Below, one piece after another: positions 9,801 to 53,272 of a DNA stretch of 64,000 bases. The notes under the pieces were generated by a model. It worked only from the letters and a program-made list of their open reading frames with translations, was not told where the DNA came from and did not search any database. Source of the stretch: Escherichia coli (GTDB lineage Bacteria > Pseudomonadota > Gammaproteobacteria > Enterobacterales > Enterobacteriaceae). The stretch lies in NCBI RefSeq assembly GCF_044647545.1, contig NZ_CP172818.1, one strand, 5' to 3'. The first letter of the stretch is position 1. Each line of letters starts with the position of its first letter. The position numbers and the translations under genes are program-made.

Positions 9801-9962
9801 TCTCCCTCACAGAATGGCACATCACTGGACCTGCAGGCCGGACTGGAAGCCCGTGTCCGGGAAAATATCACCCTGGGCGTTCAGGCCGGTTATGCCCACA
9901 GCGTCAGCGGCAGCAGCGCTGAAGGGTATAACGGTCAGGCCACACTGAATGTGACCTTCTGA
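6843..9962 (+). CDS. flu: Antigen 43 self-associating autotransporter adhesin, 1039 aa
   Basis: Starts MKRHLNTCYRLVWNHMTGAFVVASELARARG (extended autotransporter signal); repetitive beta-helix passenger; C-terminal beta-barrel ending ...GQATLNVTF; track ORF 6687..9962 trimmed to the internal ATG. Confidence 0.92.
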   Translation: MKRHLNTCYRLVWNHMTGAFVVASELARARGKRGGVAVALSLAAVTSLPVLAADIVVHPGETVNGGTLANHDNQIVFGTTNGMTISTGLEYGPDNEANTGGQWVQDGGTANKTTVTSGGLQRVNPGGSVSDTVISAGGGQSLQGRAVNTTLNGGEQWMHEGAIATGTVINDKGWQVVKPGTVATDTVVNTGAEGGPDAENGDTGQFVRGDAVRTTINKNGRQIVRAEGTANTTVVYAGGDQTVHGHALDTTLNGGYQYVHNGGTASDTVVNSDGWQIVKNGGVAGNTTVNQKGRLQVDAGGTATNVTLKQGGALVTSTAATVTGINRLGAFSVVEGKADNVVLENGGRLDVLTGHTATNTRVDDGGTLDVRNGGTATTVSMGNGGVLLADSGAAVSGTRSDGKAFSIGGGQADALMLEKGSSFTLNAGDTATDTTVNGGLFTARGGTLAGTTTLNNGAILTLSGKTVNNDTLTIREGDALLQGGSLTGNGSVEKSGSGTLTVSNTTLTQKAVNLNEGTLTLNDSTVTTDVIAQRGTALKLTGSTVLNGAIDPTNVTLASGATWNIPDNATVQSVVDDLSHAGQIHFTSTRTGKFVPATLKVKNLNGQNGTISLRVRPDMAQNNADRLVIDGGRATGKTILNLVNAGNSASGLATSGKGIQVVEAINGATTEEGAFVQGNRLQAGAFNYSLNRDSDESWYLRSENAYRAEVPLYASMLTQAMDYDRIVAGSRSHQTGVNGENNSVRLSIQGGHLGHDNNGGIARGATPESSGSYGFVRLEGDLMRTEVAGMSVTAGVYGAAGHSSVDVKDDDGSRAGTVRDDAGSLGGYLNLVHTSSGLWADIVAQGTRHSMKASSDNNDFRARGWGWLGSLETGLPFSITDNLMLEPQLQYTWQGLSLDDGKDNAGYVKFGHGSAQHVRAGFRLGSHNDMTFGEGTSSRAPLRDSAKHSVSELPVNWWVQPSVIRTFSSRGDMRVGTSTAGSGMTFSPSQNGTSLDLQAGLEARVRENITLGVQAGYAHSVSGSSAEGYNGQATLNVTF

Positions 9963-9982
9963 CAGAACCATCGCCTCTCTGT

Positions 9983-10007
9983 GGTCCCGGTCATCATGAC
10001 CGGGACC
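9983..10007. repeat. Near-perfect palindrome ggtcccggtcat c atgaccgggacc immediately downstream of flu
   Basis: Read from sequence; 12-bp arms; no T-run follows. Confidence 0.6.
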
Positions 10008-10082
10008 CGGACCGGCGCAACGGATCTTCAACGCCACATTCGCTGGCATTAACAATAACATGATATTCATCACGGAGTGACT

Positions 10083-11615
10083 ATGTTACAGATAGTCGGC
10101 GCGCTGATCCTGCTGATCGCAGGATTTGCCATTCTTCGCCTTTTGTTCAGAGCATTAATCAGCACGGCTTCTGCGCTGGCAGGGCTCATATTGCTGTGTC
10201 TGTTCGGCCCGGCCTTACTGGCTGGCTATATCACCGAACGCATAACCCGGTTGTTCCATATTCGCTGGCTGGCAGGCGTATTTCTGACGATTGCCGGAAT
10301 GATCATCAGCTTCATGTGGGGACTTGATGGTAAACATATCGCGCTGGAGGCTCACACCTTTGACTCTGTGAAATTTATTCTGACCACCGCTCTCGCCGGT
10401 GGTCTGCTGGCTGTTCCCCTGCAGATCAAAAACATTCAGCAGAACGGGATCACACCAGAAGATATCAGCAAGGAAATTAACGGGTATTACTGCTGTTTTT
10501 ATACTGCCTTTTTCCTTATGGCGTGTTCTGCATGCGCACCATTGATCGCGTTACAGTACGATATTTCACCGTCACTGATGTGGTGGGGCGGGTTGTTGTA
10601 CTGGCTGGCTGCATTAGTGACGCTGCTATGGGCGGCCAGCCAGATCCAGGCGCTGAAAAAACTGACCTGTGCCATCAGCCAGACACTGGAAGAACAACCG
10701 GTGCTCAACAGTAAATCGTGGCTGACCAGTTTGCAAAACGATTACAGCCTTCCTGACTCACTGACGGAGCGCATCTGGCTGACGCTCATTTCTCAACGGA
10801 TTTCCCGGGGAGAGCTGAGGGAATTTGAACTGGCAGACGGAAACTGGTTACTGAACAATGCCTGGTATGAAAGAAACATGGCAGGGTTTAACGAACAGTT
10901 GAAAGAGAACCTGTCATTCACACCTGATGAACTGAAAACGCTCTTCCGGAACCGCCTGAATTTATCACCGGAAGCGAATGACGATTTTCTCGATCGTTGC
11001 CTGGACGGCGGTGACTGGTATCCCTTTTCAGAAGGTCGCCGTTTTGTATCATTCCATCACGTGGATGAGCTTCGTATCTGTGCCTCCTGCGGGCTGACAG
11101 AAGTACATCATGCCCCGGAAAATCATAAGCCGGATCCGGAATGGTACTGCTCCTCTCTTTGTCGCGAAACAGAAACACTGTGTCAGGAAATTTATGAACG
11201 CCCTTACAACAGCTTTATTTCCGATGCAACGGCGAATGGTCTGATTCTCATGAAACTGCCGGAAACCTGGAGTACAAATGAGAAAATGTTTGCTTCCGGA
11301 GGGCAGGGACATGGGTTTGCCGCTGAACGGGGAAACCATATTGTCGACAGAGTCCGTCTGAAAAACGCACGGATCCTCGGTGATAATAATGCCAGAAATG
11401 GAGCAGACAGACTGGTCAGCGGAACAGAAATCCAGACGAAATATTGTTCAACTGCAGCCCGTAGCGTCGGTGCGGCATTCGACGGACAAAACGGACAGTA
11501 TCGTTACATGGGAAATAATGGCCCCATGCAACTGGAAGTCCCCCGTGATCAGTATGCCGGCGCTGTTGAAACCATGAGGAATAAGATCCGCGAAGGTAAA
11601 GTAGAGGAGCGATGA
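10083..11615 (+). CDS. yeeR: Prophage-encoded membrane protein of unknown function, 510 aa
   Basis: Hydrophobic N-terminus MLQIVGALILLIAGFAILRLLF; Cys motif CASCGL-x17-CSSLC; overlaps yeeS by ATGA. Confidence 0.8.
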   Translation: MLQIVGALILLIAGFAILRLLFRALISTASALAGLILLCLFGPALLAGYITERITRLFHIRWLAGVFLTIAGMIISFMWGLDGKHIALEAHTFDSVKFILTTALAGGLLAVPLQIKNIQQNGITPEDISKEINGYYCCFYTAFFLMACSACAPLIALQYDISPSLMWWGGLLYWLAALVTLLWAASQIQALKKLTCAISQTLEEQPVLNSKSWLTSLQNDYSLPDSLTERIWLTLISQRISRGELREFELADGNWLLNNAWYERNMAGFNEQLKENLSFTPDELKTLFRNRLNLSPEANDDFLDRCLDGGDWYPFSEGRRFVSFHHVDELRICASCGLTEVHHAPENHKPDPEWYCSSLCRETETLCQEIYERPYNSFISDATANGLILMKLPETWSTNEKMFASGGQGHGFAAERGNHIVDRVRLKNARILGDNNARNGADRLVSGTEIQTKYCSTAARSVGAAFDGQNGQYRYMGNNGPMQLEVPRDQYAGAVETMRNKIREGKVEER

Positions 11616-12058
11616 CGCCCGGCGAGCGCAGTCTCATTCAGCGGGCCCTGAAAACCCTGGACCGCCATCTTCATGAACCCGGCGTGCCCTTCACCTCCAC
11701 CCGTGCGGCACGGGAATGGCTGATTCTGAACATGGCGGGACTGGAGCGTGAAGAATTCCGGGTGCTGTATCTGAATAACCAGAATCAGCTGATTGCCGGT
11801 GAAACCCTCTTCACCGGCACCATCAACCGCACGGAAGTCCATCCCCGGGAAGTGATTAAACGCGCCCTGTATCACAATGCCGCTGCCGTGGTGCTGGCAC
11901 ACAATCACCCGTCCGGTGAAGTCACACCCAGCAAGGCAGACTGCCTTATCACGGAACGTCTGGTACAGGCACTGGGCCTGGTGGATATCCGGGTGCCGGA
12001 CCATCTGATAGTCGGTGGCAACCAGGTTTTCTCCTTTGCCGAACATGGTCTGCTTTAA
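11612..12058 (+). CDS. yeeS: RadC-like JAB-domain protein, 148 aa
   Basis: Contains the JAMM-like segment VVLAHNHPSGEVTPSKAD; CP4-44 synteny. Confidence 0.85.
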   Translation: MTPGERSLIQRALKTLDRHLHEPGVPFTSTRAAREWLILNMAGLEREEFRVLYLNNQNQLIAGETLFTGTINRTEVHPREVIKRALYHNAAAVVLAHNHPSGEVTPSKADCLITERLVQALGLVDIRVPDHLIVGGNQVFSFAEHGLL

Positions 12059-12120
12059 CCCGTCACAACCACATCACACCTGTTTTCACTTTTATCTTCT
12101 GTCTTCAGAGGTATCCCACT

Positions 12121-12342
12121 ATGAAAATTATCACCCGTGGCGAAGCCATGCGTATTCACCGTCAGCATCCGGCATCCCGTCTTTTTCCGTTCTGTACCGG
12201 CAAATACCGCTGGCACGGCAGTGCTGAAGCTTATACCGGTCGTGAAGTGCAGGATATTCCCGGTGTGCTGGCCGTGTTTGCCGAACGCCGTAAGGACAGT
12301 TTTGGTCCGTATGTCCGGCTGATGAGCGTCACCCTGAACTGA
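12121..12342 (+). CDS. yeeT: DUF987-family small protein, 73 aa
   Basis: MKIITRGEAMRIHRQHPASRLFPFCTGKYRWHG...; position between yeeS and cbeA. Confidence 0.8.
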   Translation: MKIITRGEAMRIHRQHPASRLFPFCTGKYRWHGSAEAYTGREVQDIPGVLAVFAERRKDSFGPYVRLMSVTLN

Positions 12343-12416
12343 AAGTGGGAATTCTGCTCATCAGAATTATCACCACTACCGAACCATTCTTACCGATTTT
12401 CTGTAAGGATTTTATC

Positions 12417-12785
12417 GTGTCAGACACACTCTCCGGGACAACACATCCCGACGACAATCACGACCACCCCTGGTGGGGACTACCCTGCACCGTGACGCCC
12501 TGTTTCGGCGCCCGTCTGGTGCAGGAGGGTAACCGCTTGCATTACCTTGCCGACCGCGCCGGTAACAGAGGCCTGTTCAGCGATGCAGATGCGTACCCCC
12601 TGGACCAGGCCTTTCCGCTGCTGATGAAACAACTGGAACTCATGCTCACCAGCGGTGAACTGAATCCCCGCCATCAGCATACCGTCACACTGTATGCGAA
12701 GGGGCTGACCTGTGAAGCTGACACCCTCGGCAGCTGTGGTTACGTTTATCTGGCTGTTTATCCGACGCCCGAAACGAAAAATTAA
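12417..12785 (+). CDS. cbeA: Type IV antitoxin CbeA (YeeU), 122 aa, GTG start
   Basis: VSDTLSGTTHPDDNHDHPWWGLPCTVTPCFGARLVQEGNRLHYLADRAG...; track ORF 12345..12785 trimmed to the GTG. Confidence 0.8.
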   Translation: MSDTLSGTTHPDDNHDHPWWGLPCTVTPCFGARLVQEGNRLHYLADRAGNRGLFSDADAYPLDQAFPLLMKQLELMLTSGELNPRHQHTVTLYAKGLTCEADTLGSCGYVYLAVYPTPETKN

Positions 12786-12873
12786 CCCACCGGAATAACC
12801 TTCTGCTCCGGCCTGGTGCTTTCACCACGCCACTTTTCCATTTTTATCTCTGCATATCAGGAAAATCTTCAGT

Positions 12874-13247
12874 ATGAAAACATTACCCGTATTACCCGGG
12901 CAGGCGGCGTTCTCGCCCGTCTCCTGTTACCATCTGGCAGATACTGCTCACCCGATTACTGGACCAGCACTACAGCCTTACGCTGAATGACACACCGTTC
13001 GCCGATGAACGCGTGATTGAGCAGCATATTGAGGCAGGCATTTCACTGTGTGATGCAGTGAACTTTCTCGTGGAAAAATACGTACTGGTACAACTGACCA
13101 GCCGGGATTCAGCGCCGGAACCCGTCTCAGTTAATCAACAGCATTGATATCCTCCGGGCTCGCCGGGCAACCGGTCTGATGACCCGCAGCAACTACAGAA
13201 CGGTAAATAACATTACCCTGGGTAAGTATCCGGAGGCGAAAAATGAA
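12874..13247 (+). pseudogene. cbtA: CbtA (YeeV)-like toxin gene with the reading frame split over three frames
   Basis: ATG at 12874 gives [12 protein letters not shown] then stops at 12988; CbtA-like residues [48 protein letters not shown] are in the +1 frame (stop 13145); [21 protein letters not shown]... is in the +2 frame. Confidence 0.6.
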
Positions 13248-13439
13248 ATGACGCTGGAAGCCGACAGCGTTAACGTACAGGCGCTGGATATGGGGCACAT
13301 TGTCGTTGACGTCGATGGTGTTAATCTCACTGAACTGATTAATAAAGCCGCTGAAAACGGTTATTCACTCCGCGTGGTGGATGACCGTGACACTACCGAA
13401 ACACCGGCAACTTCTGCCAGCCCTCATCAGTTGCCGTAA
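13248..13439 (+). CDS. yeeW: Small prophage protein YeeW-like (63 aa), here in frame with the last cbtA segment
   Basis: MTLEADSVNVQALDMGHIVVDVDGVNLTELINKAAENGYSLRVVDDRDTTETPATSASPHQLP; part of track ORF 13179..13439. Confidence 0.5.
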   Translation: MTLEADSVNVQALDMGHIVVDVDGVNLTELINKAAENGYSLRVVDDRDTTETPATSASPHQLP

Positions 13440-13604
13440 GACAATACAGTGATACAGAGTATAATGCCATTAGCCACAGAAAAAAAAAAAAACAGCACTG
13501 TTGTCCTGTATTAAACAGGCAAGAGAAGATATCCATACCCTGCGCCATCTGCAGCTTCTGCACCAGAACCGGTGAATCTCACTCAACAGACTTCATTTCC
13601 CCTG

Positions 13605-13636
13605 ACGCCAGCCTGAATACAGCTGGCGTTTTCATT
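13605..13636 (+). terminator. Intrinsic terminator (acgccagc ctgaatac agctggcgt tttcattt) downstream of yeeW
   Basis: GC-rich stem followed by a T-rich run. Confidence 0.6.
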
Positions 13637-13733
13637 TATATACAGAAAGGAAAACCGATAATAATGGAATGGACGCCCCGACCATGAAGCAACGGTAGGA
13701 TATTACTGATAAACCTTCCAGTGGAGGTGCGTT

Positions 13734-13814
13734 ATGGCCGTTTTAACGATTAGCATTGACCTGACAAAAAATGAATTCCAAATCCACGGTCTGGGTAGGA
13801 ACAGAAAAATCTAA
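13734..13814 (+). pseudogene. 26-codon remnant resembling the N-terminus of an IS110-family transposase
   Basis: MAVLTISIDLTKNEFQIHGLGRNRKI then stop; the ISIDLTK pattern resembles the IGIDxAK start of IS110-type transposases; weak. Confidence 0.25.
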
Positions 13815-13889
13815 GCTCAGAAAACGGATTAAAGTAAGCGTCAACGGAGCACCATATTGACGCTTATTTATTGGTGAGAACTACGTTCC

Positions 13890-14246
13890 ATGGCAGGAGT
13901 TCGTCAACACGGTTGGAGGGCCATTCCGGCAGTATGCTCAGAATATGGCGCAGATACGCTTCCGGATCGATACCGTTCAGACGGCAGGTGCCTGCTTTTC
14001 CGGCAACAAGCAGGAATCTCAGCGCTGAAGCAGGAATTAGAGGTAAAAACGCCCTACCGGGCCATGAATCACCCGGTCATTGGAGTAGTAACCAAAGCAG
14101 ATTTAGCCAGCATGGAACAAATATCTTTGGTGAAATGTTGGTTACGGGAAGCTGGAGCGCACAACGTGTTAGTAACCAGTGCGGTTAATAACAATGGAGT
14201 TACAGAACTTTTTGCCTTGCTGCATACAGAAGAAGGCTGCCGCTAA
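13890..14246 (+). pseudogene. yoeF: C-terminal fragment of an EutP/PduV-family small GTPase
   Basis: ...NHPVIGVVTKADLASMEQISLVKCWLREAGAHNVLVTSAVNNNGVTELFALLHTEE; no P-loop upstream; upstream part of the track ORF is unlikely to be native. Confidence 0.45.
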
Positions 14247-14346
14247 TTTCGATAGGTTCTCAGATGAGAATGATGACGGTGATACACAGATAAGAATCAA
14301 TGAGCAATGAGGGTTGCCGGGCAACCCTCATTGAATAAAACAGGAA

Positions 14347-14676
14347 TTACTTCGCTTCGCCGTTTTTCATTTCGCCCATAGCTTTCAGCTTTTTGGAGAT
14401 ATCGCGGCGTTCTTTGGAGAGCTCGGCATTTTTGATGATGTAATCGTCAACGCGATCTTCATAGTCACCTTTCATGCTGGCGATGATGCCCTGGATTGCT
14501 TCAACGCTCATCCCTGGCTTGATGTAATCGCTCAGGTTGTCCAGCAACAGGACGCGCTTCTGGTTGTCACGGATCTTTTTCTCAACGTCCTGAATTTCAC
14601 GTTGCAGTTTGTTCTTACGACGGAACAGACGAACAAATTCCAGTACGTCCTGGAATGAAGGCTTGGTAGTTTCCAT
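14347..14676 (-). CDS. yeeX: UPF0265/DUF496 protein YeeX, 109 aa
   Basis: [41 protein letters not shown]...; track ORF trimmed to the internal ATG. Confidence 0.85.
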
Positions 14677-48043: not shown

Positions 48044-48301
48044 CATGCATTCCTACGATGTGACGAGCGTTACCCACTCGCGCTTAACTCGAAAAATTCA
48101 AGCGCTAATTGTCTTACCAATCCGCTCTGGAAACAAGGAAAATCCTGGAAAACTTTGACTAAAATCCTATTGCTAAGTCGTTGTTATTCTGATTGTTTAT
48201 ATAAAACAACGGCAGGAAAATTCGCAACAAATTACTTTCGCCGCTAATCTTCACTGCCGTTATAATTTTCTTATCAACCGTTACATCCGGTCAGATTTTC
48301 A

Positions 48302-49195
48302 TTATTCGCTTAACAGCTTCTCAATCCCTTTACGGAACTTCGCCCCTTCTTTGAGGTTGCGTAGTCCATACTTCACGAACGCTTGCATATAACCCATTTT
48401 TTTACCGCAGTCGTAGCTGTCGCCGGTCATCAGCATGGCATCAACGGACTGTTTTTTCGCCAGTTCGGCAATGGCATCAGTCAGCTGAATACGCCCCCAT
48501 GCACCAGGCTGAGTGCGTTCAAGTTCCGGCCAAATATCGGCAGAAAGCACATAGCGACCAACGGCCATGATGTCTGAGTCCAGCGTCTGCGGCTGATCCG
48601 GTTTTTCGATGAATTCAACAATGCGGCTGACTTTACCTTCGCGGTCCAGCGGCTCTTTGGTCTGGATGACAGAGTATTCAGAGAGGTCACCCGGCATACG
48701 TTTTGCCAGCACCTGGCTGCGGCCCGTTTCGTTGAAGCGCGCAATCATGGCAGCAAGGTTGTAGCGCAGCGGGTCGGCGCTGGCGTCGTCGATCACAACG
48801 TCTGGCAGCACCACGACAAATGGATTGTCACCAATGGCAGGTCGTGCACATAAAATGGAGTGGCCCAAACCTAAAGGTTCGCCCTGACGCACGTTCATAA
48901 TTGTCACGCCCGGCGGGCAAATGGACTGTACTTCCGCCAGCAGTTGACGCTTCACGCGCTGTTCAAGGAGAGATTCTAATTCATAAGAGGTGTCGAAGTG
49001 GTTTTCGACCGCGTTCTTGGAAGCGTGAGTTACCAGGAGGATTTCTTTGATCCCTGCAGCCACAATCTCGTCAACGATGTACTGAATCATTGGCTTGTCG
49101 ACGATCGGTAGCATCTCTTTGGGAATCGCCTTAGTGGCAGGCAACATATGCATCCCAAGACCCGCTACAGGAATAACTGCTTTTAAATTCGTCAT
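48302..49195 (-). CDS. galF: UTP--glucose-1-phosphate uridylyltransferase-like regulatory subunit GalF, 297 aa
   Basis: [41 protein letters not shown]. Confidence 0.92.
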
Positions 49196-49369
49196 TATTT
49201 CATCCACCTGTAAAATGGTTGCTGAATTATAGCTTGTTCGATTTTTTTCGCCAGCATCAATTACCCTGAATTGATTACTGAATTACTTGTGATGTTACGC
49301 CGCTTCGTTGTGGATTGCAGTAGCATTGTTCCTAAGTATGGCTCCATTTTTCCAGGAATGGTCGCAAAT

Positions 49370-50764
49370 CTACTCTCTCCGTTCCGGCAATCTAAAGTTA
49401 ATCTTTGCCACATTAACAATATGGTGATTAATCCTGTCGATATCGACGGAGCTTTGCCCTCTTTCATTCACCGCATGAACATTTGCAAGAGACAGCAGTG
49501 TTTCTTTTTTCGCCATAAACACGCCGCGAACGTCTTTGCGCATGTCGAAGTTCATGCTCAATGCGGGTCCAACTGAGGATTCCTGCATCACATTGATATT
49601 ACGCATAAAAAGATGTTGCGGTTTGTTGTGTAACTCCAGCGACGCACGCTTCATCTCAATGTTAGTCAGCGCCACAAAGGAGACAGCATTCCCGGCGGAG
49701 ATTTGAATGCCGTGCAATTTATAAGCAAGATGAGTATTATCCAGTTGAATATTATTCACCCGGAAATTCTGCGGTATCGAGAGATATTTGCCTTTAATTA
49801 CCCCATAGCCGATTAACATCCCGGCACTATTAATCATTTCAATATTATCAATCACAAAGTTGTCACAACCATAAATAGCAACTGTGGCGTTATCAATACC
49901 TGCTTTCTTACTGAAATCCGGCGTGATATTACGGGCTTTGATATTACGAATAACAAAATGTTTACCATTTTCAACATGGATCAGTTGCCGACAATCCGAT
50001 CCCGTGATATTCGCCACGACAAAGTTTTTCACTGCCTGGTCTTCCGGGTAGTTGTTATCATAAGTGCTTCCCGCAAGACCTATGCCAATGCCCCAGTTGA
50101 TTTTGCCGTTAGTACAGTTGATGCGCTCGATGACATGGTCAGATATCAAAATATCACGGTCGTTAATCGCCACGTTCCATTCAATAGCGTCGCCCTGTAA
50201 GTCACTGAACTTACAGTTGGTGATGTTGGCACCGATAATCTGATTATGAAATCCCTGGCGTAAGATGGCGTAATTAGCGTGGCTGACAGTGAGGTTATCG
50301 ATGGTCAGGTTGCGCATGACCCGTTTGTTTTTGCCGCCGATATAAATCTGCGTTACCGGACCAAAGCCGCTCATCGCCAGCCCTTTGATGGTGCAGTCAG
50401 AGCCGCGCACATCCAGGGTGATGTTATGCATACTGCCGCCCTCCTCCCCTGTCACCTGGCTGCCGTCCTGTAAGACAAATCGCCCTCTGCCGTTGCCGCG
50501 CAAGCTTCCAAGAATGTGTAACGTTTTACCGGGAGGGATAAAGATGCCGGTGTTGATATTGTCACAAACCAATCCGCCAGGCACGACAACCGTTTGCCCT
50601 TCGCTGAAGGCTTGTTTAAATGAGGCGATCCAGTCGTGAGGGTTGTAGTCGTTAATGTTTACGCTTTGTCGGGCGGATAGTGCGCGAGCGAAAGGGGTAT
50701 GAAGGAAGGCAAGCGCGGAGCTTGCCGTCAGGAAGGTGCGTCGGGAGAGTGTTTTAAATGGCAT
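49370..50764 (-). CDS. wcaM: Colanic acid biosynthesis protein WcaM, 464 aa, signal peptide plus beta-helix-like repeats
   Basis: [28 protein letters not shown]at-like signal; last gene of the colanic acid cluster. Confidence 0.88.
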
Positions 50765-50774
50765 ACGTTCTCCT

Positions 50775-51995
50775 CTATAAAGCCTGCAGCAAGCTGGCGA
50801 GTTCTCGATTAATCACCTGCTGGTTAAAATCGTGTTCGACTTTTTCGCGAGCACGTTTGACGACAGGAGCCAGTTCGTCGGTGTCCAGTTGGCTAAACGC
50901 CGCCAGTCGTTGCGCCAGTGCGCGAGCATCGTTCTCAGGCACCAGCCAGCCGGATTTATCGGCCTCCACCAGTTCCGGTATTCCGCTATGCAGAGTAGAA
51001 ACCACCGGAATGCCGACCGCCATCGCTTCCATTAGCGCCACCGGGATGCCTTCCATATCGCCGTCCGCACCCGTTACCGAAGGCAACAGGAAGACATCCG
51101 CGTCGTCGAGCATCGCCTTCACTTCGTGGCTTGGTTTAAAGCCCGGCATCTCCACCACATCTTCCAGTTGATATTGTTCGATGAGGGTGCGCAGGCGTCG
51201 TTCCCACGGGCCAATGCCGAGGATGCGATAGCGAAATGCCACGCCCTGCTCTTTCAACTGACGGCAGGCTTCGATCGCCACATGCAGGCCTTTTTTCTCG
51301 GTTAAGCGTGCGACGGAAATGATTTCCAGCGGCGTTGCGGGCGCTTTCACCGGACGCGGGCTAAAACGCGTCATGTCCACGCCCATGCGCGATACGGCGA
51401 TTTTTTCCCTCGGGCAGCCCATTTTTTGCAGCCTTCCGGCCCACAGATTGCTTATTGGTAACATCAGGTCGCCACGGCGAAACAGTTGTTGATATTCGGG
51501 AGTGTAGTGGTTGAGCACTTCCCGACTGGAGATATCAATACCGTGGAAGATAGTGGCAATTTTGCCGCGAATGACACCCAGTTCGCGTAGTTTTGCCGCG
51601 GTTACCCCAGCAGGGCCAAAATGAGCGATAAACACATCGGCATGAAACGGTGTTGCGACCTGGCCGCAAATGGCAGACAAAATCAGGTTCCGCGACTCGG
51701 CACCATAGCGTTTGAGGTTAAGCGCCTGCCAGGTATTTTTACGATGAATGCCGCGTAAGGTCTGACTGGCTCGGTGGCGCAGTTTCGCCACTTTGCCCGT
51801 AGGTTCGTCCTGTAACCAGCGGGTTCTGGCGGCAAGGTTGTATTTCGTCCATGCCGCGTGGGTGTTCTGGGTGTCGCCTTTTTGCAGCGCGAGAATCTCC
51901 ACCTCAAATCCCATATCAATAAACGCGGTAATTTGGTTAAGGACGAAGGTTTCTGAAGACAGCGGGAATTTCAGTAAAAAGAAGCCAACCTTCAT
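50775..51995 (-). CDS. wcaL: Colanic acid glycosyltransferase WcaL (GT1 family), 406 aa
   Basis: GT1 C-terminal signature; cluster position. Confidence 0.88.
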
Positions 51996-53272
51996 TTCAC
52001 TTCCCCGATGCGTTCAAGCACAGATTGCACCATCTGCATTCCTGTCTGACGCTCACGACTGACGGCTTCGTTAAGTCGTGTATTCAGCGCAGGAAGCTGG
52101 CCTAAGGTATCCGCAACCATCGCTTGCAGGCTGCCGTCTAATAAATGACGGATATCAATTGCCATCTCTGGTAGCCCCAGTTGTTGCATAATCCCGGCGG
52201 ATTTATGTTCATAGTTGATGGCAATCGCTGGAGTGGCAAAGTTCATCGAGATAATGGCAGAGTGCAAGCGCGTACCGACGGTGAGTTCACAGGCCGCCAG
52301 AATTTTGCCCATTTCCAGATCATTGAGTTCATCCATCACTACGTGGTAACGGGCAGGATCGCTGATGTGCTGGCGCAGGTTGAGCGCCACCATGCGGTCG
52401 TCTTTGTTATAGCTGTCGATGCCCGTACAGGTGGAGAGCGCAATCACCTGATACCCTTCATCGAGAATGCGATTGACCACCCCGGCAAAGGCTTTTTCAT
52501 ACGCTTGTTGGGTGGTGCCGAGACGTTTGTCAAACGGTGCCAGTTCGCGCAGGGTAATGGCCACCGTTTTCTGTTGTGCGGCAACGTCCAGCCAGTGTTG
52601 AACGGCATAGCTGGCGGTGAAGTCTTCGGTGTGGTGATCGACCAGCCACGCGGTATCGACGCCATGTTCGACTTTTGCGGTGGTGATATTGCTGCGTTTC
52701 ATCAGTTCAAGGCTGACCGATTCGCGCAGGATCAGCGCGTCGCAGTGACCGAATACGTAGTTCACCAGTTGGTTAAATTGCTCATCCTGGAACGGGCCGA
52801 CGCTGTGACCAATCATAAACAGCGGCTTTTTCGCCATAAACGTGCAAAGCGCATGTTCAAACTGCGGAACGCCGTAGAGATCGACAAAAAACGATCCGCC
52901 GACCTGAATAATGGCGTCGTAACCTGACAGCAGGCGCACGAAGTCGGTGAATCCCTGGGCGATGGCGATATTACGCAGCTTGCCAGTGTCGGTGACGCGT
53001 GAGAGCAATACCTGGTGCTGGTAGCGGCGACGGAGAACTTTTTTAACGCGCCCAACCACGCCCGCCGCGCTGTTGTGTTGTTTCATTTGCAGGAACAGCG
53101 GATCGCCCATTACCGGACGGTTGAGCAGCCAGGAAGAACTGACCGGATAGCGACTCATCACGTCCACTTCGGCGTGTGGATTGAGGATGTTGATGGCATC
53201 AAGTAAGCCGCGCAAGATGGCGCTGTCGCCGCGATTGCCGCAAGTGTGGTTGCCCAGAATAAGTAATTTCAT
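51992..53272 (-). CDS. wcaK: Colanic acid pyruvyl transferase WcaK, 426 aa
   Basis: MKLLILGNHTCGNRGDSAILRGL; track ORF 525 aa trimmed to the internal start. Confidence 0.88.
   Translation of the reverse strand: MKLLILGNHTCGNRGDSAILRGLLDAINILNPHAEVDVMSRYPVSSSWLLNRPVMGDPLFLQMKQHNSAAGVVGRVKKVLRRRYQHQVLLSRVTDTGKLRNIAIAQGFTDFVRLLSGYDAIIQVGGSFFVDLYGVPQFEHALCTFMAKKPLFMIGHSVGPFQDEQFNQLVNYVFGHCDALILRESVSLELMKRSNITTAKVEHGVDTAWLVDHHTEDFTASYAVQHWLDVAAQQKTVAITLRELAPFDKRLGTTQQAYEKAFAGVVNRILDEGYQVIALSTCTGIDSYNKDDRMVALNLRQHISDPARYHVVMDELNDLEMGKILAACELTVGTRLHSAIISMNFATPAIAINYEHKSAGIMQQLGLPEMAIDIRHLLDGSLQAMVADTLGQLPALNTRLNEAVSRERQTGMQMVQSVLERIGEVK

What the first reader, a model, noticed from the sequence alone, without database searches (positions are those of the whole stretch)
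10083..12785. Tightly coupled yeeR-yeeS-yeeT-cbeA module downstream of flu
yeeR and yeeS overlap by ATGA and the remaining genes are spaced by 2-75 bp on one strand, suggesting one operon. YeeR has a hydrophobic N-terminus plus a Cys4 motif (CASCGL-x17-CSSLC). It is followed by a RadC-like JAB protein with the HNHPSG motif, a DUF987 protein and the antitoxin. This co-occurrence recurs in cryptic prophages, and the function of the first three genes is not established.
Basis: partly seen in the sequence, partly recalled or inferred. Interest (0 to 1): 0.4.

Follow-up and report, generated by a model that had tools for sequence, protein, structure and literature searches.

The report
Deletion scar fusing yeeR to yeeS
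The four genes are real, annotated E. coli CP4-44 island genes, but the tight overlap between the first two is the scar of a 3.35-kb deletion that truncated both genes, so this is not an evolved four-gene machine and the locus is largely ordinary.

Summary
yeeR (10083-11615), yeeS (11612-12058), yeeT (12121-12342) and cbeA (12417-12785) lie on one strand, with an ATGA overlap, the Cys4 motif and the HNHPSG motif.

The yeeR/yeeS overlap is a deletion scar. Intact islands read agn43, yeeR (838 aa), irmA, DUF905, DUF932, antirestriction, yeeS (158 aa), yeeT, cbeA, cbtA. Here about 3,353 bp are missing:
- YeeR is cut after residue 507. Its last three codons and its stop codon are yeeS sequence read out of frame.
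- YeeS starts at the ancestral Met11.
- The usual promoter region of the antirestriction-radC-DUF987-TA operon is gone.

Only 359 of 5,426 complete E. coli genomes carry this junction. The yeeS-to-yeeW cassette occurs in 4,709 of them, with a median of 3 matching places per genome. The truncation in K-12 is already published, as is the agn43-yeeR-irmA operon. MG1655 RNA-seq shows flu, yeeR and yeeS co-varying.

cbtA is frameshifted here, so cbeA is an orphan antitoxin.

New side result: full-length YeeR is modelled as membrane helices, two winged helices, a Cys4 zinc ribbon, a restriction-endonuclease-like core (invariant E415, D442, Q451, K453) and a glycine-zipper membrane tail. This assignment has moderate confidence.

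Interest is low.

The parts
6843..9962 (+). flu/agn43 (Ag43 autotransporter). It is the first gene of the phase-variable transcription unit that now runs into yeeR' and yeeS'.
   Evidence: The K-12 annotation was mapped onto the window. There are 0 differences from K-12 across 6500-11609. The agn43-yeeR-irmA operon is shown in PMC4807369.
9983..10007 (+). Perfect 12+12-nt GC-rich palindrome in the flu-yeeR spacer, with no U tract. It may be an mRNA 3' stabiliser or a partial attenuator.
   Evidence: The spacer RNA folds at -43.1 kcal/mol, z = -4.15.
10083..11615 (+). yeeR' (510 aa), a truncated YeeR-family gene. Residues 1-507 are ancestral. The last three codons (EER) and the TGA are yeeS sequence read out of frame.
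   Evidence: Full-length relatives are 820-850 aa.
11079..11162 (+). Cys4 zinc-ribbon motif of YeeR (residues 333-360, CASCGL-x17-CSSLC).
   Evidence: One search gives the motif. C333, C336, C356 and C360 are invariant. Weak zf-MYND and treble-clef hits appear. It resembles YacG (probability 0.51, not significant).
11295..11603 (+). Part of the restriction-endonuclease-like core of YeeR retained here (residues ~405-507), including invariant E415, D442, Q451 and K453.
11603..11606 (.). Deletion junction. The last ancestral yeeR base is 11603, two unassigned bases (GA) occupy 11604-11605, and the first ancestral yeeS base is 11606. About 3,353 bp are missing relative to the intact locus L007.
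   Evidence: In one search, other genomes match only query positions 1-60 or 62/63-120 of a junction-spanning probe.
11612..12058 (+). yeeS' (148 aa), a RadC-like JAB protein that lacks the first 10 ancestral codons. The JAB domain and the HxH-x7-S-x2-D site are intact.
   Evidence: It is 77% identical to LfgB/YfjY. dN/dS is 0.10 against K-12.
12121..12342 (+). yeeT (73 aa), DUF987.
   Evidence: E = 1.5e-40; phrog_14887. It is 66% identical to YpjJ. dN/dS is 0.13.
12417..12785 (+). cbeA (122 aa, GTG start), the type IV antitoxin. It is an orphan here.
   Evidence: (E = 4.6e-53). dN/dS is 0.22.
12874..13246 (+). cbtA pseudogene, with several frameshifts relative to K-12. The end coordinate is approximate.
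   Evidence: One search gives the translation with stops. One search lists indels at 12908, 13092, 13124 and 13242-13247.

Best explanation
This locus is a composite made by one deletion.

**Ancestral arrangement.** It is still present in many E. coli. Two separate units lie in series.
1. The first unit is the OxyR/Dam phase-variable operon agn43-yeeR-irmA.
2. After DUF905 and DUF932 comes the island cassette: antirestriction, radC-like yeeS, DUF987 yeeT, cbeA, cbtA, yeeW. In the CP4-57 paralogue, the promoter of this cassette lies upstream of the antirestriction gene.

**What the deletion removed (~3,353 bp).**
- Codons 508-838 of yeeR, which encode its C-terminal helical and glycine-zipper membrane half.
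- irmA, the DUF905 gene, the DUF932 gene and the antirestriction gene, together with that promoter region.
- The first 10 codons of yeeS.

**Consequences shown by the sequence.**
- YeeR now ends in three out-of-frame codons and a TGA that overlaps ancestral Met11 of yeeS. This is the ATGA.
- YeeS starts at Met11, behind a GAGG Shine-Dalgarno-like sequence that the junction partly creates.

**Consequences inferred.**
- yeeS', and with decreasing strength yeeT and cbeA, are now transcribed by read-through from the agn43 promoter.
- YeeS' is still a competent JAB metallohydrolase. Its paralogue was reported to be a protease; comparative genomics predicts a nucleic-acid-processing role instead.
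- YeeS' may act together with the small YeeT protein.
- CbeA is an orphan antitoxin because cbtA is frameshifted.
- YeeR' is a membrane-anchored fragment that keeps the winged helices, the zinc ribbon and most of a nuclease-like core but lacks the C-terminal membrane module. It is probably non-functional or hypomorphic.
For: **Deletion mapping.**
- Window 9800-11603 equals intact locus L007 6278-8081 at 99.9% identity.
- Window 11606-12342 equals L007 11435-12171 at 96.2% identity. L007 8082-11434 is absent from the window.
- Intact gene orders were seen in five loci.
- YeeS homologues of 158 aa begin MQQLSFLPG(A/E)MTPGER. The window protein begins MTPGER.

**The long form of YeeR is ancestral.**
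- Homologues from Serratia, Pseudomonas, Methylomonas, Shewanella, Herbaspirillum, Dyella and others are 805-882 aa.
- They align along the whole length, with invariant residues out to R811.

**Other independent deletions in the same interval.** These include a yeeR-DUF932 fusion (P0002) and a 691-aa internally deleted yeeR (P0009).

**Rarity of the junction.** It is present in 359 of 5,426 genomes. The cassette is present in 4,709 of 5,426.

**Literature.**
- MG1655 carries a large deletion that disrupts yeeR and lacks irmA (PMC4807369; PMC6480617).
- agn43-yeeR-irmA is co-transcribed and repressed by OxyR.
- flu, yeeR and yeeS co-vary in MG1655 RNA-seq.
- The promoter of the lfgABCDE operon lies upstream of the antirestriction gene.

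**Other sequence evidence.**
- No + strand terminator is predicted between 6810 and 13042.
- The JAB motif is intact.
- dN/dS values are 0.10, 0.13 and 0.22 for yeeS, yeeT and cbeA.
Against: - The junction is not a clean microhomology product. Both ancestral breakpoints carry CCCGG, but the junction reads GAGG with two bases I could not assign to either side. The exact event, or later mutation, is unresolved.
- Transcription of yeeT and cbeA from the agn43 promoter is not shown. The RNA-seq study flagged only flu, yeeR and yeeS. An internal promoter could exist that the simple scan missed.
- The low dN/dS may reflect alleles imported by gene conversion from intact copies rather than selection on this locus. 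Window yeeS is identical over 11700-12100 to the intact SMS-3-5 allele.
- The protease activity of the paralogue LfgB rests on a poorly soluble preparation. The authors state they cannot strictly rule out contaminating proteases.
- Translation of YeeS' from Met11 was not tested.
Confidence: 0.88

Rival explanations
1. yeeR-yeeS-yeeT-cbeA is an evolved, translationally coupled operon whose four products act together, for example as a phage-defence or stabilisation module.
For: - The genes are co-oriented with an ATGA overlap.
- No terminator is predicted between them.
- flu, yeeR and yeeS are co-expressed.
- Full-length YeeR has weak similarity to the PADLOC candidate PDC-M09B.
Against: - The overlap is a deletion junction found in only 359 of 5,426 genomes.
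- In intact loci four genes separate yeeR from yeeS.
- Distant yeeR homologues have no RadC, DUF987 or CbeA neighbours.
- Both overlapping genes are truncated.
- The toxin partner is dead.
- The four window proteins give no PADLOC hits.
Confidence: 0.04
2. The whole stretch is inert, decaying island remnant. YeeR' is non-functional, YeeS' is not translated, and yeeT and cbeA are drifting towards pseudogenes.
For: - Both yeeR and yeeS are truncated.
- cbtA is frameshifted here and also in SMS-3-5.
- The neighbouring yeeP, the TonB-receptor gene and the DUF957 gene are pseudogenes in K-12.
- The native promoter region was deleted.
Against: - yeeS, yeeT and cbeA remain open, with dN/dS of 0.10-0.22.
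- The JAB domain is complete (Pfam profile positions 2-121 of 121) and its metal site is intact.
- yeeR and yeeS transcripts are detected and regulated in MG1655.
- A plausible Shine-Dalgarno sequence precedes each start codon.
Confidence: 0.3
3. The right-hand cassette, originally DUF932-antirestriction-RadC-DUF987, is an establishment or anti-defence set of a mobilisable island, analogous to plasmid leading-region genes. YeeS and YeeT would act on incoming DNA or on host immunity proteins, not on host stress physiology.
For: - The cassette sits next to a KlcA/ArdB-type antirestriction gene in every intact copy seen.
- RadC-type JAB domains are fused to ArdC, primases and helicases in conjugative elements and are predicted to process nucleic acids (PMC3239186, PMC5512222).
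- RadC pairs with a small DUF protein on broad-host-range plasmids (PMC12826799).
Against: - There is no experimental support here.
- In this window the antirestriction gene and its promoter region are deleted, so any such role is crippled.
- The paralogue was instead reported to be a stress-response protease.
Confidence: 0.3

Closest known systems
E. coli K-12 CP4-44 locus flu-yeeR-yeeS-yeeT-cbeA-cbtA-yeeW (b2000-b2006)
   Same: - Same genes, order, chromosomal site and deletion junction.
- flu and yeeR' are 100% identical over about 5.1 kb.
   Different: - From base 11610 onward the window differs from K-12 by 2-13 mismatches per 100 bases.
- Its yeeS-yeeT allele matches the SMS-3-5 type.
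- cbtA is frameshifted here but intact in K-12.
Intact agn43-yeeR-irmA operon and downstream island genes of UPEC, EAEC and ETEC strains (e.g. strain 90-9280, locus L007)
   Same: The left flank up to yeeR codon 507 and the right flank from yeeS codon 9/10 are collinear, at 99.9% and 96.2% identity.
   Different: The window lacks 3,353 bp: yeeR codons 508-838, irmA, DUF905, DUF932, the antirestriction gene and the start of yeeS.
CP4-57 lfgABCDE operon (yfjX-yfjY-ypjJ-yfjZ-ypjF)
   Same: - The order RadC-like JAB, DUF987, CbeA-family antitoxin is the same.
- YeeS is 77% identical to LfgB and YeeT is 66% identical to YpjJ.
   Different: - The window copy lacks the antirestriction gene and its upstream promoter region and has a dead toxin.
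- MqsA regulation and protease activity were shown only for the CP4-57 copy.
PD-(D/E)xK restriction-endonuclease-like fold (Hjc, XisH-like 2okf, CdiA-CT toxins, HamA, FokI cleavage domain)
   Same: - The YeeR core (residues ~405-525) is modelled as alpha-beta-beta-beta-alpha-beta.
- Invariant E415 sits on the first helix, D442 at the second strand and Q451-x-K453 on the third.
   Different: - Foldseek is not significant.
- No Pfam, NCBIfam or PDB sequence-profile hit to any nuclease family.
- The third motif is QxK rather than (D/E)xK.
- No activity is known.

Membership tests
YeeR family (Pfam PF27347 YeeR_C; NCBI 'YeeR family protein') | Full-length architecture of ~820-850 aa that includes the conserved C-terminal half | tested here: not met
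   The window protein is 510 aa. It is identical to the 838-aa P0003 over residues 1-507 except at 4 positions, then diverges to EER-stop. The family alignment has invariant residues out to R811.
YeeR family (Pfam PF27347 YeeR_C; NCBI 'YeeR family protein') | Conserved Cys4 motif and GGQGHGFAAE...NGADR...IQTKY core | tested here: met
   C333, C336, C356, C360, E415, D442, Q451 and K453 are all present in the window protein.
RadC-like JAB domain (PF04002) | Pfam domain match above the gathering score, covering the whole domain | tested here: met
   151.4 bits against a cut-off of 22.1, covering profile positions 2-121 of 121.
RadC-like JAB domain (PF04002) | JAMM metal-binding motif HxH-x7-S-x2-D | tested here: met
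   HNHPSGEVTPSKAD at residues 97-110.
Chromosomal RadC/YicR equivalog (NCBIfam NF000642) | [quoted passage not shown] | tested here: not met
   159.5 bits is below the cut-off of 180. Only profile positions 89-211 are matched. This is the short, JAB-only version found on mobile elements.
DUF987 (PF06174) | Pfam domain match above the gathering score | tested here: met
   137.4 bits against a cut-off of 25, covering profile positions 1-65 of 65.
CbtA/CbeA type IV toxin-antitoxin system | CbeA-family antitoxin gene | tested here: met
   PF06154, 178.4 bits against a cut-off of 27.
CbtA/CbeA type IV toxin-antitoxin system | Intact CbtA toxin gene immediately downstream | tested here: not met
   Translation from 12874 reaches stop codons after 38 codons. 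There are four indel sites relative to K-12.
agn43-yeeR-irmA operon (PMC4807369) | agn43 upstream, then yeeR, then irmA, on one transcript | tested here: not met
   agn43 and the 5' 60% of yeeR are present, but irmA is deleted. Co-transcription was not testable here. Published K-12 RNA-seq supports flu-yeeR-yeeS co-variation.
PD-(D/E)xK nuclease superfamily (for the YeeR core) | Restriction-endonuclease-like alpha-beta-beta-beta-alpha-beta fold with acidic and lysine catalytic residues on helix 1, strand 2 and strand 3 | tested here: inconclusive
   [not shown]
Known or candidate anti-phage defence systems (PADLOC-DB v2) | Significant match to a PADLOC protein model | tested here: not met
   None of the four window proteins hits at E <= 0.01. 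Only full-length YeeR relatives hit the candidate PDC-M09B weakly, at E = 1e-5 to 1e-6.

The most novel reading that the evidence does not exclude
Full-length YeeR, of which this window keeps the N-terminal 60%, could be an uncharacterised membrane-anchored DNA sensor and nuclease.

- Its modelled parts are N-terminal transmembrane helices, two winged helices, a zinc ribbon, a restriction-endonuclease-like core and a glycine-zipper membrane tail.
- It could be a single-gene defence or DNA-entry exclusion factor that E. coli co-expresses with the aggregation adhesin Ag43.
- It is related to the PADLOC candidate PDC-M09B.
- In other Proteobacteria it is found alone among toxin-antitoxin, TIR and IS genes.
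- The core domain occurs in about 1,000 protein clusters (at 50% identity) with varied architectures.
Probability: 0.2. Interest if true: 0.6.

Novelty: already known. Interest (0 to 1): 0.2.

Why it matters
**Mainly a caution.** A 4-base gene overlap in a degraded genomic island can be a deletion scar rather than evidence of co-evolved, translationally coupled genes. Work on K-12 yeeR studies a fragment, and K-12 yeeS lacks its first 10 codons.

**Consequence of the fusion.** It places a JAB enzyme and a type IV antitoxin cassette behind the phase-variable agn43 promoter. This explains why yeeR and yeeS track flu in K-12 transcriptomes.

**Side result.** Full-length YeeR may carry a nuclease-like core between two membrane modules. 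This gives a testable starting point for a widespread, uncharacterised protein that is co-expressed with Ag43 and IrmA in pathogenic E. coli.

Tried and rejected
- **Family scans of the 510-aa YeeR.** Pfam, NCBIfam, PHROGs and PADLOC gave nothing. The local Pfam copy lacks PF27347.
- **PDB sequence-profile search with the YeeR alignment.** It found only a glycine-rich similarity to a tape-measure protein, which I rejected as compositional.
- **Foldseek on the full-length model.** It found only tandem winged-helix matches (ESCRT-II, probability 0.99) and spurious membrane-protein hits.
- **Rfam scan of 5500-14500.** No radC, STAXI or other structured RNA lies between the genes. The only hit is IS102 RNA in the flu leader.
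- **Promoter scan.** No strong + strand promoter was found in the yeeS-yeeT or yeeT-cbeA spacers. This is weak negative evidence.
- **Pfam on ten other architectures that carry the YeeR core.** Only Sel1, TPR and beta-helix repeats appeared, with no functional clue.
- **A simple CCCGG microhomology deletion.** Considered and rejected as a complete explanation, because the junction sequence does not contain CCCGG.
- **The 146-aa cbeA ORF starting at 12345.** Considered and rejected, because K-12 has frame-breaking indels there.
- **Source of the window.** Not pinned down. No complete E. coli genome in the collection matches better than ~97-98% in the regions tested.
Full report
**1. What is there**

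The window between about 2,650 and 22,500 is collinear with the E. coli K-12 CP4-44 region: cobU side, IS2, yeeP', flu, yeeR, yeeS, yeeT, cbeA, cbtA, yeeW, tmaR, yeeA, sbmC and onward. Overall identity is 98.1%.

The four ORFs of the finding are exactly as described:
- yeeR, 10083-11615, 510 aa.
- yeeS, 11612-12058, 148 aa, overlapping yeeR in ATGA.
- yeeT, 12121-12342, 73 aa, 62 bp further on.
- cbeA, 12417-12785, 122 aa, GTG start, 74 bp further on.

K-12 has frame-breaking indels in that stretch and annotates the shorter gene, so the extension is not coding.

Pfam assigns the following:
- YeeS to RadC-like JAB, E = 1.3e-44.
- YeeT to DUF987, E = 1.5e-40.
- CbeA to CbeA_antitoxin, E = 4.6e-53.

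The CASCGL-x17-CSSLC motif (YeeR 333-360) and the HNHPSG motif are present. The latter is part of a complete HxH-x7-S-x2-D JAMM site at YeeS 97-110. cbtA downstream is broken by several frameshifts.

**2. The overlap is a deletion scar**

A protein search with YeeR showed that the family is normally 805-882 aa. An E. coli form of 838 aa is the representative of a cluster with 15,556 member sequences. The window protein matches its first 507 residues (4 substitutions) and then diverges to EER-stop.

Loci encoding longer forms carry irmA, a DUF905 gene, a DUF932 gene and an antirestriction gene after yeeR. In E. coli 90-9280 (locus L007) the complete series is agn43, yeeR (838 aa), irmA, DUF905, DUF932, antirestriction, yeeS (158 aa), yeeT, cbeA, cbtA, DUF5983, DUF957, DUF4942.

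Aligning the window to L007 gives two blocks:
- Window 9800-11603 equals L007 6278-8081, at 99.9% identity.
- Window 11606-12342 equals L007 11435-12171, at 96.2% identity.

About 3,353 bp are therefore missing.

At the junction the window reads ...AAAGTA|GA|GGAGCGATGACG...:
- The left ancestral sequence continues ...AAAGTACCCGGTGTA.
- The right ancestral sequence is ...CTGCCCGGAGCGATGACG.
- YeeR's last three codons and its TGA are yeeS sequence read in another frame.
- The yeeS ATG is the ancestral Met11. Intact YeeS begins MQQLSFLPG(A/E)MTPGER.
- Both ancestral breakpoints carry CCCGG, but the junction reads GAGG, so a simple microhomology event does not fully explain it.

A 120-nt probe centred on the junction is contiguous in only 359 of 5,426 complete E. 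coli genomes. All other genomes match only positions 1-60 or 62/63-120. By contrast, the yeeS-to-yeeW segment is present in 4,709 genomes, with a median of 3 matching places per genome.

Other independent deletions hit the same interval:
- A yeeR-DUF932 fusion protein (P0002).
- A 691-aa internally deleted yeeR (P0009).
- An in-frame yeeR-yeeS fusion (P0001). This is a single Logan assembly, so it may be a sequencing error or a 1-nt variant.

**3. This is already in the literature**

- Moriel et al. 2016 (PMC4807369) defined the OxyR-repressed agn43-yeeR-irmA operon. They state that a large region is deleted in MG1655, disrupting yeeR.
- Bernabeu et al. 2019 (PMC6480617) state that K-12 yeeR is truncated and that irmA, aec70 and aec71 are missing.
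- In EAEC 042, irmA has its own promoter (PMC9431211).
- I did not find a base-pair description of the junction in these papers, or the point that yeeS is also truncated. These are details, not a new kind of thing.

**4. Expression**

- No intrinsic terminator is predicted on the + strand between the flu leader (6782) and a weak site inside cbtA (13042).
- A strong hairpin without a U tract lies 21 nt after the flu stop codon (9983-10007). The spacer RNA folds with z = -4.15.
- In MG1655 derivatives, flu, yeeR and yeeS rise together 6-, 3- and 2-fold. The authors cite them as one transcription unit.
- In the paralogous CP4-57 operon (yfjX-yfjY-ypjJ-yfjZ-ypjF, renamed lfgABCDE), the promoter and the MqsA-binding site lie upstream of the antirestriction gene.
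- The equivalent region is inside the deleted segment here. I therefore infer that the cassette lost its own promoter and that yeeS' is now driven by agn43 read-through.
- Whether yeeT and cbeA are also driven this way is not shown.

**5. What the proteins are**

*YeeS'*
- It keeps the entire JAB domain and metal site.
- It is the short mobile-element type of RadC, not the chromosomal HhH-RadC.
- It is 77% identical to YfjY/LfgB. LfgB was reported to degrade antitoxin MqsA and to protect against oxidative, acid and heat stress. The authors caution that the preparation was poorly soluble and that contaminating proteases cannot be strictly excluded.

*YeeT (DUF987)*
- It is 66% identical to YpjJ.
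- It was tested as a possible DicA antirepressor and had no effect.
- The paralogous upstream genes do not neutralise the CbtA-family toxins.

*Selection*
- dN/dS between the window and K-12 alleles is 0.10 for yeeS, 0.13 for yeeT and 0.22 for cbeA.
- This is consistent with purifying selection. It is confounded by gene conversion (section 7).

**6. YeeR itself (side result)**

An AlphaFold2 model of the 838-aa protein, built with 89 homologues, has mean pLDDT 77.9. It shows the following parts:
- Long hydrophobic helices in residues 1-204, with about five to six transmembrane-like segments.
- Two winged-helix domains at ~205-325. Foldseek matches ESCRT-II winged helices with probability 0.99 but E = 0.06.
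- The Cys4 ribbon at 333-360.
- A helical linker.
- An alpha-beta-beta-beta-alpha-beta domain at ~405-525.
- A helical C-terminal half with glycine-zipper hydrophobic segments at 550-568, 683-701 and 719-737. This region is poorly modelled.

The family's invariant residues E415, D442, Q451 and K453 fall on the helix and strands where that fold carries its catalytic residues.

Evidence against the fold assignment:
- Foldseek is not significant.
- No sequence profile connects the domain to a nuclease family.

I put the fold assignment at roughly 0.55.

Further observations on the family:
- Full-length relatives weakly match the PADLOC candidate PDC-M09B, at E = 1e-5 to 1e-6.
- Distant homologues are stand-alone genes among RES-Xre, HicAB, TIR and IS66 genes.
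- The core domain is found in 995 cluster representatives (50% identity) with varied architectures.

The window's fragment keeps everything up to the last helix of the core but none of the C-terminal membrane module.

**7. Mosaicism around the scar**

- Window and K-12 are identical over 6500-11609 (flu plus yeeR').
- Differences begin at 11610, four bases after the junction, and run at 2-13 per 100 bases through yeeW.
- Flanking core genes differ by about 1.8%.
- The window's yeeS and most of yeeT are identical or nearly so to the allele of strain SMS-3-5. That strain has, at the same chromosomal site, an intact 158-aa yeeS behind an antirestriction gene and no flu or yeeR.
- The simplest reading is repeated gene conversion of the cassette from allelic or paralogous copies. 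The left limit of conversion would be the scar, because homology ends there. This is an inference.

**8. Verdict**

The module is not a co-evolved four-gene unit. [quoted passage not shown]

Novelty is 'already known' and interest is low. The one lead worth keeping is the predicted architecture of full-length YeeR.

Noticed in passing
window 9983-10007: A perfect 12+12-nt GC-rich palindrome (GGTCCCGGTCAT / ATGACCGGGACC) lies 21 nt after the flu stop codon, with no U tract. The 120-nt flu-yeeR spacer folds at -43.1 kcal/mol (z = -4.15). It could stabilise the flu 3' end or partly attenuate read-through into yeeR.
   Followed up: partly
window 6500-11609 versus 11610-13500: flu and yeeR' are 100% identical to K-12 over ~5.1 kb, while core flanks differ by ~1.8%. 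Divergence starts 4 bases after the deletion junction. The yeeS-yeeT allele matches strain SMS-3-5, not K-12. This suggests recent import of flu-yeeR' plus gene conversion of the cassette bounded by the scar.
   Followed up: partly
window 12874-13246; L006 10263-10636: cbtA is frameshifted in this window and, independently annotated, in E. coli SMS-3-5, while cbeA stays intact in both. Loss of the toxin with retention of the antitoxin may be recurrent.
   Followed up: no
P0003 residues ~405-525 (window 11295-11603 for the retained part): The conserved YeeR core (GGQGHGFAAE...NGADR...IQTKY) occurs in 995 protein clusters at 50% identity. It is often at the N-terminus of 450-700-aa proteins, or is joined to Sel1, TPR or beta-helix regions. 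The local Pfam copy has no model for this domain.
   Followed up: partly
L009 10765-13635 (Methylomonas paludis); L008 10032-11011 (Pseudomonas nunensis): Distant yeeR homologues sit next to a TIR-domain gene (CAP12-PCTIR_TIR), DUF6399, HicAB, RES-Xre and IS66 genes. This is variable, defence-island-like context with no Ag43, RadC or CbeA.
   Followed up: no
window 6619-6822: Rfam IS102 RNA (RF00124, 252.6 bits) lies in the flu leader. It overlaps a terminator-like hairpin with a U tract at 6782-6809.
   Followed up: no
window 2656 and window 36000-52000: The IS5 copy present in K-12 next to the cobU side is absent here. The window carries an O16-family O-antigen/colanic acid region that is at best 98.0% identical to any complete E. 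coli genome in the collection. The source strain is therefore not K-12 and is not represented in that collection.
   Followed up: partly
P0001 (658 aa, one Logan assembly): An in-frame YeeR'-YeeS' fusion protein (…REGKVEGEMTPGER…) exists in the protein database, differing by one extra base at the junction. It is either a real variant of the scar or an assembly error.
   Followed up: no
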